A DNA stretch of 64,000 nt, from NCBI RefSeq assembly GCF_003334305.1, contig NZ_QOWS01000003.1; one strand, given 5' to 3'. The position numbers and the translations under genes were made by a program. The DNA comes from Escherichia coli. GTDB taxonomy: Bacteria; Pseudomonadota; Gammaproteobacteria; Enterobacterales; Enterobacteriaceae. Position 1 is the stretch's first letter. Each line of letters starts with the position of its first letter. The notes under the pieces are model-generated. The model was not told the origin of the DNA. It searched no databases and saw only the letters and a list, made by a program, of their open reading frames with translations. Below, piece by piece: positions 12,291-16,227 of this stretch.

Positions 12291-12683
12291 ATGATGCGCC
12301 AATCACTTCAGGCTGTTTTACCTGAAATTTCAGGCAATAAAACGTCATTGCTGCGTAAATCGGTATGCAGCGATCTCCTCACTCTTTTTAATTCTCCTCA
12401 TTCGGCATTACCGTCATTACTTGTTTCAGGCATGCCAGAGTGGCAAGTGCATAACCAGAGCGACAAACATCTCCAGAGCTGGTATTGCCGTCAGCTGCGT
12501 TCTGCACTGTTATTTCATGAGCCACGGATTGCGGCGTTGCAGGTTAATTTTAAAGAAGCGTACTGCCACACTCTGGCGATCAGCCTTGAGATAATGCTGT
12601 ACCACGACGGTGAACCGCTAACGTTTGATCTGGTCTGGGATAATGGCGGTTGGTGTAGTGCGATGCTGGAGAATGTCAGCTAA
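12291..12683 (+). CDS. iraD: Anti-adaptor protein IraD (inhibitor of RssB-mediated RpoS degradation)
   Basis: 130 aa starting [17 protein letters not shown]; recognised IraD; long AT-rich upstream leader region. Confidence 0.85.
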
Positions 12684-13587
12684 GCACAATCTCCAGCTCG
12701 CGCAGTTCACGCCAGAAGCGTTCGGCAACTGGATTCATGCGGGTATTCATTCGGTATGCATAGGCCTGAATCGGGATCACCAGTTCGTCCCGATTCAGTA
12801 CAACGAGCTTCCCGCTGCGAATTTCTTGTTGGATGGCGTACTCCGGCAGCCAGGCAATCCCACAGCCGTCGAGGGCAACCTGCTTTAAAAGCTCGCTCAT
12901 CGAAGAGACAAAAAAGGTGCTGAAACTTAACTCACTGTGGCGCGTCAGGGTGCGATTAATCAATCGCCCCATGTAGGAGTTGCGGCTGTAATTCAGTAAC
13001 GGAAAGTGTGGCTGCGCGAGGTTAAAAAGTGCTTCTCCGTGTTCGTCACTGGCGCAGACAGGGAACAATTGAGATTCAAATAAGCGAATGTGGTCAAACG
13101 GCGCTTCCAGCAAATCTTCGTCGTGAAAGGAAAAAATACAGTCACTTTGCCCTTCACGCAGTTTATCGACCGCTTCATCGACATCAATAGCTTCAATTGC
13201 CCAGGTAAAGAGCGGCGGCATCTGGCTGATAATGGACGGTAACAGCCCGAGGGAAAGAGAGTGTGCAGCGGCTATCTTGATTTTTCGTTGCGCGTAATCG
13301 CTGCCGCCACGCAGCTCTGCCAGATTGCTCTCTAACTGTTGCAACAGATGGCGGATCTGCGAATGGAAGATTTTCCCTTGTTCTGAGAGTTGCAGCGGCG
13401 TTACCTGGCGGTTAAACAATTCAACACCAATCGCCTGTTCCAGCGCACGGATGCGGCGGCTGAATGCCGGTTGCGAGACGTTGCGACTGACTGCCGCCTG
13501 GGAAAAATTGCGGCATTTTTCCAGGGTCAGAAAATCATAAAGCCATTTGGTTTCAATATTATGCAAAATCGCACCACAGTCATCCAT
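12676..13587 (-). CDS. hypT: LysR-family transcriptional regulator (hypochlorite-responsive HypT/YjiE)
   Basis: 303-aa ORF with N-terminal LysR HTH ([29 protein letters not shown]); 3' end overlaps the iraD 3' end by 8 nt (convergent). Confidence 0.85.
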
Positions 13588-13651
13588 TACGTTTTACTCT
13601 GTCAGCCGCCCTTGCGGGCATTCTACGTCCATTCGGGCGGCTGACAACCGT

Positions 13652-14824
13652 TTAAGCCGTTTCAAACGTTCCATTCACGCAGGCTTTGCCGTCTTTGACC
13701 ATCAGTTTGCCGCGAGCGTATACCTGCTCAATGCGCAGTTCTGGCGTCATGACCAGCAAGTCAGCATCATTGCCTGGCAGAATTTCGCCTTTCCCGGTCA
13801 GGTTAAGGAAACCGGCTACGCTACTGGTGAGCGGGCGCAGGGCATCGCTGATACTGAAATCATAGTCTTTGACCAGCACCTGCACGGTTTCCAGCAACGT
13901 TTCAAAACCGGCAACACCGATATGGGTTAAATTCCCTTCGTCATCGAAGAACGGCTGGCTACCGTTGCCGTCGGAGCTGAGGGTGACGCGTGCCAGCGGA
14001 ATACCCGCCTGAACGGCGCGGGCAATACCTTCGGCAGGGGCGACCGGTTCGTCAATGCTGCTGGTGATATCGATAGTGCCGCCTTTGCGCGCGAACTCCA
14101 GCGCCTGCTCAAACAACGGAACGTTGCGGTTAACGTGGGTCGGCAGCAACTTGCTGATCGGCACATCGCAGTTTTCCAGCAGGTCATAGACAGGCTGTAA
14201 CGCCTTTTTGCTGTCGCCCATGTGGAACACGGTGACGCCAGGTTTACCGCCGAGCAAACCGCCAACGCGGGATTCCGCCGCCATATTAGCCAGGTGATAA
14301 ACGTCCGGTGCGGCAGAACGGTGATCAGAGATGGCGCATTTCACGCCAATCACACGATCGATAATCGCCACGTCTTTTTCCACGGAACCTGTAATGGTGC
14401 GGGAAGGGACATGATAAGCGCCGGTCAGCATCCAGGCGCTGATGCCTTCTTCATTGAGCGCACGGGTCTTGGCGAGCAGGGATTCCGGGTGGCGAGAGAT
14501 AGAGTCGGTGCCCAGCAGACCAACCACTGACGTGACGCCCGCTTCCGTCAGGCGACTTAGCGCCACTTCTGGCGTGCGCGTCGTGGGACCTGCTTCGCCG
14601 CCACCACCAATCAAATGGACGTGTTGATCAATAAAACCAGGACAGAGGATCTGCCCGCTGAGATCGACAACCGTGCAGTCCGGTACAATGTCAGAAGGGA
14701 TATTGCTGGCAACGGCGATAATTTTGCCGTTAGCGACGAGGACATCGCAAATTCCCCGATCTTCCGGCGCATACAAATGCGCTCCCTGCAGCAGGGTAAA
14801 ACCGGCTGCGGTATAATCAATCAT
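13652..14824 (-). CDS. iadA: Isoaspartyl dipeptidase
   Basis: 390-aa ORF; amidohydrolase-superfamily features (HVHLIGGGGEAG metal-binding region); recognised IadA. Confidence 0.9.
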   Translation of the reverse strand: MIDYTAAGFTLLQGAHLYAPEDRGICDVLVANGKIIAVASNIPSDIVPDCTVVDLSGQILCPGFIDQHVHLIGGGGEAGPTTRTPEVALSRLTEAGVTSVVGLLGTDSISRHPESLLAKTRALNEEGISAWMLTGAYHVPSRTITGSVEKDVAIIDRVIGVKCAISDHRSAAPDVYHLANMAAESRVGGLLGGKPGVTVFHMGDSKKALQPVYDLLENCDVPISKLLPTHVNRNVPLFEQALEFARKGGTIDITSSIDEPVAPAEGIARAVQAGIPLARVTLSSDGNGSQPFFDDEGNLTHIGVAGFETLLETVQVLVKDYDFSISDALRPLTSSVAGFLNLTGKGEILPGNDADLLVMTPELRIEQVYARGKLMVKDGKACVNGTFETA

Positions 14825-14836
14825 GGTAACTCCTTG

Positions 14837-15298
14837 TTAAACAATAAGCTGCATAACCCAGATCGACAGCAATGCGTTAATCACGCAGACCGTAATGATA
14901 TGCGGGTAATATTTGGCATTCACTTCGGCTGTCCCCAGGCAGCGACCGACATTTTGCACCGGGTTGCCCATTAAATACATCGCGGGCAGTAAAACGGTGA
15001 CATCGTGACCGGTTAATGCGCCGGCGGTCGCCAGACTGGCGGCAACACCGACTGCGCCGCCCATACTCATTAATGCGGCTAAAAGGACGGTTGCCGCTTC
15101 ACCGGGTAATCCCCACAGCGCCATTACGGGTTCACAGATATGCCCCACCCAGTCGAGCAGGCCGGTAATTTTCAGCGCCTGAATGATGACAAACGCCATC
15201 ACCACGTTTGGCAGCAGGTTGGTCGTGGCGATAGTAAAGCCACGGCGCGCGCCATCGATAAACATATCCATGACGTTTTTGCGGACCTGAGTTGTCAT
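14837..15298 (-). CDS. yjiG: Inner-membrane protein YjiG (nucleoside-recognition/SpmB-like)
   Basis: 153-aa hydrophobic ORF directly downstream of iadA; 4-nt overlap with yjiH suggests translational coupling. Confidence 0.8.
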   Translation of the reverse strand: MTTQVRKNVMDMFIDGARRGFTIATTNLLPNVVMAFVIIQALKITGLLDWVGHICEPVMALWGLPGEAATVLLAALMSMGGAVGVAASLATAGALTGHDVTVLLPAMYLMGNPVQNVGRCLGTAEVNAKYYPHIITVCVINALLSIWVMQLIV

Positions 15299-15978
15299 GC
15301 TTGCGCTCCTTGCGTTGGGTTGCGACGTTCTTCGAAGTTAAGCCAGACGCGCAAAATGTTGGCTCCGACAAATTTAAACACCAGGATGACGGCTAAAGGT
15401 ACGATTACGGACGTGCCCAGAAAGGCGAACACCGCGACGCCGGAAGAGAAGTAGTTGGTGATGATGGCGCTACCGCTGGTTTGATATGCGGCGAAAATCA
15501 CTTTATCGCGTTCGGTAATTTCCCCTTCCTGCGCCAGCTCTTTGGTCATACCGGCGGCGGCATCAGTGTTTTGCAGGTTAGCGATCAGCGCCAGCGAGCA
15601 GATCCCTGGAATGCCCAACAACGGTTTTAGCACAGGCGTCATTAACTGCTGCGCGGCGCGTAATCCACCAAGACCATCGGTAATTGAAATAATCCCCAGA
15701 GAGAGAATGACTGACGGTGCCAGCTCCAGCGCAAAGAGAAAGCCATCTTTAGCCCCCGCGCCACCCGCCCCGCGAAATGAGGTGGTGGCTCCATTCGCAC
15801 CAGGCAGTTGCCCAAACGATCCGTTCAGAACGGAAAAATCAAAAACGCGCCACCAGCTGTCTGTCCCGGAAAAAACTCCGGAAAAAAAGATTATGGTGAG
15901 AAAAAAAGCCAGATACCCTTTAATGCCCACTTTTTCTGTCGCCAGCTCCCCGGCTACAGCATCCCCTTGTTGTGTCAT
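15295..15978 (-). CDS. yjiH: Inner-membrane protein YjiH (nucleoside-recognition/SpmA-like)
   Basis: Hydrophobic ORF 15295..15990; start assigned to the second Met (MTQQGD...), giving about 227 aa; start position uncertain by 12 nt. Confidence 0.75.
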   Translation of the reverse strand: MTQQGDAVAGELATEKVGIKGYLAFFLTIIFFSGVFSGTDSWWRVFDFSVLNGSFGQLPGANGATTSFRGAGGAGAKDGFLFALELAPSVILSLGIISITDGLGGLRAAQQLMTPVLKPLLGIPGICSLALIANLQNTDAAAGMTKELAQEGEITERDKVIFAAYQTSGSAIITNYFSSGVAVFAFLGTSVIVPLAVILVFKFVGANILRVWLNFEERRNPTQGAQA

Positions 15979-16227
15979 AACAATCCCCATTGTTTTTTTG
16001 TGTTTGTGTGTTGCTTGAGCCAGGAAAATTCCTGGAGCTGAAAAACCTTATCAGCCATGTGGGTATGGGGAAAATGCAAGTATGTTTCTTGCTATGCGTT
16101 TTTTGCATAGCGGAAAAATTACGCTGTGTAGAAAAGGCTCTGCGCAGGATTGAGTTGCAGAAAATTCATAAACCCAGTGACAATGACATCAGTAAATAAA
16201 AACAGAAAATCCAGGGACGAAAACGCG

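What the first reader, a model, noticed from the sequence alone, without database searches (positions are those of the whole stretch)
13652..15978. iadA-yjiG-yjiH: isoaspartyl dipeptidase translationally coupled to two small membrane proteins, possibly a split transporter for damaged peptides
The three genes are co-directional with 12-nt and overlapping (ATGA-type, 4 nt) junctions. yjiG and yjiH are short polytopic proteins resembling the two halves (SpmB/SpmA-like) of nucleoside-recognition 'Gate' domain transporters. A dedicated importer for isoAsp-containing dipeptides feeding IadA would make functional sense, but as far as I know this has not been shown.
Basis: inference. Interest (0 to 1): 0.45.

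Follow-up and report, generated by a model that had tools for sequence, protein, structure and literature searches.

The report
Split transporter coupled to isoaspartyl dipeptidase
In E. coli, two small membrane proteins of unknown function (YjiH and YjiG) are very likely the two halves of one transporter, and across bacteria their genes almost always sit directly in front of a cytoplasmic dipeptide-type hydrolase, so the best guess, still untested, is that they import the damaged (isoaspartyl) dipeptides that IadA cleaves.

Summary
The window is E. coli chromosome and carries yjiH (15978..15295), yjiG (15298..14837) and iadA (14824..13652), all on the minus strand. yjiH and yjiG overlap by ATGA. 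A 12-nt spacer holding an AAGGAG Shine-Dalgarno separates yjiG from iadA. The operon is already annotated (RegulonDB unit yjiHG-iadA); YjiH and YjiG remain uncharacterised.

The "split transporter" idea is well supported:
- Both proteins carry one Gate repeat and are homologous to each other.
- At least 10 divergent natural YjiH-YjiG fusion proteins exist.
- yjiG directly follows yjiH in all 79 testable genomes.

The substrate idea is supported only by association. In 80 species-level loci the next gene is IadA (45) or an M20 amidohydrolase (19, plus 4 nearby). These hydrolases have no signal peptide. IadA-linked transporters carry a private motif (YjiG G-N-P-V-Q-N) at a predicted helix break. 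No conserved Cys or His argues against metal transport.

Import of beta-Asp dipeptides is the most likely function (about 0.55), but no experiment shows it. Verdict: a reasonable, testable hypothesis about an orphan transporter family; moderate interest.

The parts
15295..15978 (-). yjiH CDS (227 aa): N-terminal half of the predicted transporter; TM1, a short beta-hairpin, then the first Gate repeat (hairpin tip GIPG 122-125, invariant Q136/D139, K202, R210)
15979..15990 (-). alternative in-frame ATG start for yjiH (MGIV- extension); RefSeq uses 15978
15295..15298 (-). ATGA overlap: yjiG start codon overlapping the yjiH stop codon (translational coupling)
   Evidence: the same -4 overlap in Escherichia, Citrobacter and Salmonella loci
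15306..15311 (-). AAGGAG Shine-Dalgarno for yjiG, inside the 3' end of yjiH, 7 nt before the ATG
   Evidence: read from the sequence
14837..15298 (-). yjiG CDS (153 aa): C-terminal half of the predicted transporter; second Gate repeat (hairpin tip GLPGE 63-67, Q115, R119, and the IadA-specific motif G-N-P-V-Q-N at 111-116)
14825..14836 (-). 12-nt yjiG-iadA spacer caaggagttacc containing AAGGAG (14835..14830), 5 nt before the iadA ATG
13652..14824 (-). iadA CDS (390 aa): isoaspartyl (beta-aspartyl) dipeptidase; no signal peptide
   Evidence: (TIGR01975, 620.7 bits)
15979..16227 (.). yjiH-kptA divergent intergenic region, presumed site of the operon promoter. No promoter-like match on the minus strand, no sigma-54 box and no Rfam element were found here

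Best explanation
YjiH and YjiG assemble into one heteromeric inner-membrane secondary transporter. Each subunit supplies one of two homologous Gate repeats (re-entrant hairpin plus broken helix). Together they form a fold like that of concentrative nucleoside transporters, so transport probably works by an elevator-type, cation-coupled mechanism. The three genes are made from one mRNA with coupled translation, which keeps the two halves stoichiometric. The transporter takes up beta-aspartyl (isoAsp) dipeptides from outside the cell; such peptides survive ordinary peptidases. Cytoplasmic IadA then splits them into Asp plus an amino acid, for nutrition or salvage, mainly in stationary phase. Shown here: gene layout, homology of the halves, existence of fusions, conserved pairing with hydrolases, predicted fold. 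Inferred: physical heterodimer, direction of transport, substrate, energy coupling.
Against: There are no transport or growth data. Published yjiG phenotypes (antibiotic fitness, biofilm, valine yield) are mild, unrelated to peptides and uninformative. IadA was originally explained as clearing isoAsp dipeptides made inside the cell from damaged proteins (own knowledge: Gary and Clarke 1995), which needs no importer. Some genomes keep yjiHG without any adjacent hydrolase: Endozoicomonas, two Vibrio species, and three Enterobacteriaceae that lack iadA at this site. The partner-specific motif follows a clade, so it is not independent of phylogeny. The 80 loci are the closest of 490 relatives, which biases the sample. 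An RpoD-binding site at the yjiG/iadA boundary hints at separate iadA transcription. The heterodimer model comes from an artificial concatenation.
Confidence: 0.55

Rival explanations
1. YjiHG is a real two-subunit transporter, but its substrate is not the IadA substrate (for example a nucleoside, an amino acid such as Asp, or ordinary alpha-dipeptides). The linkage to iadA would reflect shared regulation only.
For: The closest solved folds are nucleoside transporters. Some genomes keep yjiHG without a hydrolase. CRISPRi data suggest YjiG affects the entry of diverse antibiotics (PMC12063145).
Against: The next gene switches between two unrelated hydrolase families (amidohydrolase-superfamily IadA versus M20), both of which cleave dipeptide-like or N-acyl amino-acid amides, while the flanking genes are otherwise unrelated. 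The transporter motif changes with the partner. There is no sequence-level match to the CNT family.
Confidence: 0.17
2. YjiHG works outward: it exports the hydrolysis products or toxic non-canonical peptides, rather than importing substrate.
For: Direction cannot be read from sequence. IadA substrates can arise inside the cell from damaged proteins (own knowledge).
Against: A cytoplasmic hydrolase makes export of its substrate redundant, and its products (Asp plus an amino acid) are ordinary metabolites. Control by sigma-54 activators, the tested one PrdR-like, suggests a catabolic operon. Known analogues pair an importer with a hydrolase: aotJQMP with aotO (PMC9974463); abgT with abgAB and gsiABCD with iaaA (own knowledge).
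Confidence: 0.1
3. YjiHG imports a divalent metal (as the Gate domains of FeoB do for Fe2+) to load the binuclear metal centres of the co-encoded IadA or M20 enzymes.
For: All partner enzymes are metallo-hydrolases. Gate is the FeoB membrane-domain family, and YjiG gives a weak feoB hit of 19 bits.
Against: No alignment column has Cys or His in 50% or more of the sequences. The conserved polar set is D, E, K, R, Q and N, which suits a zwitterionic organic substrate. No G-domain is present. No FeoB entry appears among the listed PDB fold hits, which are CNT and other organic or anion elevator transporters. The partner-specific motif is hard to explain for a shared metal.
Confidence: 0.06
4. The three genes are simply neighbours transcribed independently, and YjiH and YjiG act separately.
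For: An RpoD-holoenzyme site is reported at the yjiG/iadA boundary (PMC3946193), and a weak promoter-like match lies at 14840..14813.
Against: The ATGA overlap and 12-nt spacer, with no terminator-like site at either junction. Gene order is conserved in distant phyla and natural fusions exist. The weak -10 match lies inside iadA, so it could not drive a full-length iadA message.
Confidence: 0.04

Closest known systems
Concentrative nucleoside transporters (CNT/NupC family; vcCNT 3TIJ/4PD5, CNTnw 5L26, bovine CNT3 8TZ1)
   Different: About 10-16% identity, and no sequence-level hit with a 33-sequence profile. No Nucleos_tra2_N/C domains. Split into two polypeptides whose repeats are still recognisably homologous. 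Genomic partners are peptidases, not nucleoside-metabolism genes.
FeoB membrane domain (two Gate domains, Fe2+ uptake)
   Same: The same Pfam family (Gate) occurs twice per functional unit; YjiG gives a weak feoB hit.
   Different: No GTPase domain, no conserved Cys or His, and no FeoB entry among the listed fold hits.
SpmA/SpmB spore-maturation proteins of Bacillus (two adjacent small Gate-domain membrane proteins)
   Same: The same idea of two adjacent genes each encoding one Gate protein. Databases name YjiG-type proteins and the fusions 'SpmB' (InterPro assignment quoted in PMC12063145).
   Different: An exhaustive phmmer search with YjiH finds only 327 clusters, so the YjiH family appears small and distinct; whether any of those clusters is SpmA was not checked. 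SpmAB sit in the dacB sporulation operon, not next to hydrolases (own knowledge). SpmAB function is also unknown. Not compared directly here.
AbgT with AbgA/AbgB (p-aminobenzoyl-glutamate transporter plus M20 hydrolases, E. coli)
   Different: A different transporter family; a single polypeptide; a different substrate.
Other isoAsp-dipeptide hydrolase plus importer operons: aotJQMP with aotO (CphZ) in P. aeruginosa; iaaA with gsiABCD in E. coli
   Same: A hydrolase for beta-Asp dipeptides encoded with an importer. [quoted passage not shown] The iaaA-gsi linkage is from own knowledge.
   Different: Those importers are ABC systems with periplasmic binding proteins; YjiHG is a small binding-protein-independent secondary carrier.

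Membership tests
Isoaspartyl dipeptidase IadA (TIGR01975, MEROPS M38) | Full-length match above the curated equivalog cutoff | tested here: met
   620.7 bits against a cutoff of 331.25, residues 9-388
YjiG family (NCBIfam NF007811) | Full-length match above the curated cutoff | tested here: met
   263.2 bits against a cutoff of 111. Firmicutes-type partners score 224-228 bits
Gate-domain superfamily (Pfam PF07670) | Significant Gate domain in each protein | tested here: met
   YjiH 88-183, E 2.8e-8; YjiG 27-111, E 4.8e-12. The two repeats are mutually homologous, hhalign 95.9%
Concentrative nucleoside transporter family (CNT/NupC) | Sequence membership (Nucleos_tra2_N/C domains or a significant sequence match to CNTs) | tested here: not met
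   Only Gate is found by Pfam. There are no PDB sequence hits with single proteins or with the profile
Concentrative nucleoside transporter family (CNT/NupC) | CNT-like fold over the whole protein | tested here: met
Concentrative nucleoside transporter family (CNT/NupC) | Single polypeptide, homotrimer, nucleoside substrate with Na+/H+ coupling | not testable with these tools
   The protein is split into two genes in E. coli. Oligomeric state, substrate and coupling ion need experiments
FeoB-type ferrous iron transporter | N-terminal G-domain and conserved Cys in the Gate motifs | tested here: not met
   No G-domain. No column has Cys or His in 50% or more of the sequences. The feoB model scores 19 bits against a cutoff of 315
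SpmA/SpmB spore maturation proteins | Orthology to B. subtilis SpmA (for YjiH) and SpmB (for YjiG) | not tested
   No SpmA or SpmB reference sequence was available. Only database names point this way. The YjiH phmmer search returned a small family of 327 clusters
Polycistronic, translationally coupled operon | Same strand, overlapping or abutting ORFs with SD sequences, no terminator at the junctions | tested here: met
   ATGA overlap, 12-nt spacer, AAGGAG before both downstream starts, and no terminator-like site at either junction
Polycistronic, translationally coupled operon | One transcript demonstrated experimentally | not testable with these tools
   Listed as the unit yjiHG-iadA in tables of PMC6469107 and PMC3946193. 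The latter also reports an RpoD site at the yjiG/iadA boundary

The most novel reading that the evidence does not exclude
YjiH/YjiG-type 'split Gate' proteins are a previously uncharacterised family of heterodimeric (sometimes fused) elevator-type secondary carriers. They would be dedicated to the uptake of protease-resistant amides: isoAsp dipeptides when paired with IadA, and N-acyl amino acids or unusual dipeptides when paired with M20 enzymes. This would give gut and marine bacteria a salvage route for damaged-protein debris, with substrate specificity readable from a short motif at the helix breaks (YjiG 111-116 and YjiH 134-141).
Probability: 0.5. Interest if true: 0.6.

Novelty: new variant of a known kind. 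Interest (0 to 1): 0.48.

Why it matters
If the hypothesis is right, several things follow.
- YjiH and YjiG, two long-standing E. coli genes of unknown function present in more than 99% of complete genomes, would get a function.
- It would define a small orphan transporter family (about 330 clusters at 50% identity).
- It would show that a CNT-like elevator carrier can be built from two separately encoded homologous halves.
- It would recast IadA from a purely internal clean-up enzyme to part of an uptake-and-salvage pathway for isoaspartyl peptides, which resist normal peptidases and accumulate in aged dietary and host proteins.
- The partner-specific motif would give a handle for predicting the substrates of the M20-linked relatives.

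Tried and rejected
- A 39-sequence YjiH alignment (A1) was too diverse for the locus scan, so it was replaced by the 11-sequence A2.
- Sequence searches of the PDB with YjiH, YjiG and the 33-sequence paired profile found nothing meaningful.
- Rfam found no riboswitch or other RNA element between 12400 and 17000.
- A search for a sigma-54 box upstream of E. coli yjiH was negative, although such boxes exist in the Firmicutes-type loci.
- Genes beyond the trio are not conserved between lineages (MocR-type regulator, LctP-type permease, GroEL, MCP, NRAMP-type transporter). No cyanophycinase turned up among the neighbours examined, so a dedicated cyanophycin-utilisation locus is not supported.
- Literature searches found no functional study of YjiG or YjiH. 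The phenotypes reported (antibiotic fitness, biofilm, valine yield) do not bear on the substrate.
- PMC3266929 lists yjiGH among deleted two-component systems; the Gate-domain content of these proteins is not what a two-component system would show.
- Ben Hania et al. 2017, on a cyanophycin utilisation locus containing iadA and a transporter, is not held, so the type of that transporter could not be checked.
- Model coordinates are not exposed to scripts, so 3D clustering of the specificity residues could be inferred only from secondary-structure breaks.

Full report
**1. What is in the window**

The segment is E. coli chromosome. It is 100% identical to several complete genomes and is present in 5390 of 5426 complete E. 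coli genomes. RefSeq annotates it as hypT - iadA - yjiG - yjiH on one strand, with kptA diverging.

In window coordinates all three genes of the finding are on the minus strand:
- yjiH 15978..15295
- yjiG 15298..14837
- iadA 14824..13652

The yjiH stop and yjiG start overlap as ATGA. An AAGGAG lies 7 nt before the yjiG ATG. The yjiG stop is followed by 12 nt (caaggagttacc), with AAGGAG 5 nt before the iadA ATG. The two terminator-like matches on that strand lie inside iadA and inside yjiH, not at the junctions, and the scan found no more sites than shuffles give.

**2. Identities**

- IadA is an unambiguous isoaspartyl dipeptidase (TIGR01975, 620.7 bits against a cutoff of 331).
- YjiG matches its own NCBIfam family (263 bits against 111).
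- YjiH has no curated family.
- Each small protein contains one Pfam Gate domain.
- Neither has a sequence relative among solved structures.
- The unit is listed as yjiHG-iadA in transcription-unit tables. IadA and YjiG are both reported as Crl-dependent by mass spectrometry (PMC6469107).
- Papers up to 2026 still describe YjiG as uncharacterised (PMC12063145, PMC13311989, PMC9836088). No paper in the library reports a test of isoAsp-dipeptide transport by these proteins.

**3. Are YjiH and YjiG two halves of one protein? Four independent lines say yes.**

- *Natural fusions.* An exhaustive phmmer search of 1.84 billion representatives finds a small family (327 clusters at E <= 1e-3). At least ten divergent members of 374-412 aa have an N-half 38-49% identical to YjiH and a C-half 33-50% identical to YjiG, in the same order as the genes. 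These fusions recur on independent contigs. One from a named organism, Succinivibrio dextrinosolvens, is in AFDB.
- *Adjacency.* In 80 species-representative genomes recovered with a YjiH profile, yjiG directly follows yjiH in every one of the 79 loci where the DNA continues. Gaps run from -32 to +65 nt.
- *Homology of the halves.* YjiH 74-175 aligns with YjiG 15-116 at hhalign probability 95.9%, E 5e-9. The pair is a duplicated repeat, each copy with a G-[IL]-P-G hairpin-tip motif.
- *Predicted fold.* An AlphaFold2 model of the E. coli concatenation, built on a paired alignment of 33 pairs and fusions, is confident (pLDDT 83.6, pTM 0.78). It is disordered only at the N-terminus, one loop and the artificial junction. 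It superposes on the AFDB model of the natural fusion at TM 0.83.

**4. What kind of transporter**

YjiH plus YjiG therefore together reconstitute a CNT-like fold, with one Gate repeat contributed by each subunit. Membership of the CNT family at the sequence level is not met. This is a structural relative, not a NupC paralogue.

**5. What does it carry?**

Only association evidence is available, but it is consistent.

*The next gene.* Of the 80 species-level loci, the gene immediately downstream on the same strand is:

| Downstream gene | Loci |
|---|---|
| IadA | 45 |
| M20 peptidase | 19 |
| M20 gene nearby | 4 |
| Neither | 11 (3 are contig ends) |
| Contig ends inside yjiH | 1 |

Three loci carry both IadA and M20.

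*The partners.* The M20 partners fall into two groups. One is TIGR01891 'amidohydrolases' (the M20D aminoacylase/carboxypeptidase type, above cutoff). The other is glutamate-carboxypeptidase-like. The fusions and members only 29-34% identical are also flanked by M20 genes. In Firmicutes-type and Negativicutes loci the partner is a true IadA (521-530 bits).

*The surroundings.* Genes further out are unrelated between lineages, so the conserved module is the transporter plus one hydrolase. None of the hydrolases has a signal peptide, so their substrates must reach the cytoplasm. Many Firmicutes-type loci are preceded by a sigma-54 activator (the one tested is PrdR-like) with a good -24/-12 box in front of yjiH. 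This suggests an inducible, catabolic-type operon. E. coli has no such box.

*Conserved residues.* Conserved polar residues are D47, D139, E158, K202, R210, Q136, Q166 and N207 in YjiH, and N31, Q115 and R119 in YjiG. No alignment column has Cys or His in at least half the sequences. This fits a zwitterionic organic substrate and argues against FeoB-like metal transport.

*A partner-specific motif.* All 42 distinct IadA-linked pairs carry G-N-P-[VI]-Q-N at YjiG 111-116, and none of 21 M20-linked pairs does (they have G-[SA]-x-[IVL]-Q-Y). Parallel switches occur at YjiH 134, 141, 167 and 170. YjiG 112-116 and YjiH 134/141 sit at breaks between predicted helices, next to the invariant Q/D/R residues. 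From my own knowledge of CNT structures, that is where CNTs bind substrate. The signature follows a clade, so it is suggestive, not independent proof. M20-linked pairs of similar overall divergence (53-58% identity to E. coli YjiH) have the other motif.

**6. Most likely mechanism**

One mRNA is made from a promoter in the yjiH-kptA intergenic region. Translational coupling gives matched amounts of YjiH and YjiG. The heteromer imports beta-aspartyl dipeptides by a cation-coupled elevator mechanism, and cytoplasmic IadA releases Asp and the second amino acid.

- Shown: layout, homology, fusions, conserved pairing, predicted fold.
- Inferred: heterodimer, direction, substrate, coupling ion.

Confidence is about 0.9 for 'one two-subunit transporter' and about 0.55 for 'imports IadA substrates'.

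**7. Caveats and rivals**

- IadA's classical role, degrading internally generated isoAsp dipeptides (own knowledge), needs no importer.
- Some lineages keep yjiHG with no hydrolase nearby: Endozoicomonas, two Vibrio species, and three Enterobacteriaceae in which iadA is missing beside groEL.
- A reported RpoD-binding site at the yjiG/iadA boundary (PMC3946193) leaves room for separate iadA transcription.
- The 80 loci are the closest of 490 relatives.
- Rivals considered: unrelated substrate (0.17), exporter (0.10), metal supply to the metallo-hydrolases (0.06), independent genes (0.04).

**8. Novelty and score**

The operon and its genes are known and annotated.

New here:
- the fusion evidence;
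- the CNT-like fold of the pair;
- the family-wide pairing with IadA or M20 hydrolases;
- the partner-specific motif.

I class this as a new variant of a known kind: an elevator carrier of CNT-like fold, split into two homologous subunits and tied to peptide-like substrates. It would be useful and directly testable for workers on uncharacterised E. coli genes and on transporters, but not startling. Interest 0.48.

Noticed in passing
window 13588-13651 and 12676-13587 (-): hypT (yjiE, LysR-type) lies only 64 nt downstream of iadA on the same strand. A 10/12 sigma-70-like match (13647..13620) sits in the gap and there is no terminator-like site. The same LysR gene follows iadA in 14 Escherichia, Citrobacter, Salmonella and Hafnia-type loci. 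Read-through from the operon into hypT is possible.
   Followed up: partly
window 14813-14840 (-): A weak promoter-like match straddles the yjiG/iadA junction, with its -10 inside iadA. Shimada et al. 2014 list an RpoD-holoenzyme site at this boundary without giving a hexamer sequence.
   Followed up: partly
window 15979-15990 (-): A second in-frame ATG four codons upstream of the annotated yjiH start (MGIV-MTQQ...). Which start is used is not known.
   Followed up: no
L001-L008, L055, L061, L067, L074, L075, L082 (35-180 nt upstream of yjiH): Near-consensus sigma-54 -24/-12 boxes (TGGCA[CT]-N5-TTGC[AT]) lie in front of yjiH wherever a sigma-54 activator gene is adjacent (the one tested is PrdR-like). 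The signal sensed by these activators could reveal the substrate.
   Followed up: partly
L033, L047, L050 against L049, L051, L064: In Enterobacter, Lelliottia, Huaxiibacter and Kluyvera the yjiHG locus lies next to groEL. Three species keep yjiHG, still with the IadA-type NPVQN motif, but have no iadA at this site. This looks like recent loss of the hydrolase.
   Followed up: partly
L058:1861-4307 and L098:1752-6390: Tandem duplicate yjiH-yjiG pairs in one locus. In L098 they are separated by an M20 gene and a LysR regulator. This suggests diversification of substrate specificity.
   Followed up: no
L068, L070, L096: Loci that carry both an IadA and one or two M20 genes around a single yjiHG pair with the M20-type motif.
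   Followed up: no
L001, L005, L056 and others against the window: YjiH and YjiG of Negativicutes and Firmicutes-type genomes are 58-62% and 56-71% identical to the E. coli proteins, but their IadA is only 45-49% identical. This suggests horizontal spread of the module among gut bacteria, or stronger constraint on the transporter.
   Followed up: no
L009:1-4889: BREX-type defence genes (BrxL, a PglX-like methyltransferase, a PLD nuclease) lie upstream of a fused yjiHG-M20 pair in a metagenome contig. Probably coincidental.
   Followed up: no
PMC3266929 (Salmonella): yjiGH is listed there among deleted 'two-component systems'. The Gate-domain content of these proteins is not what a two-component system would show.
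   Followed up: yes
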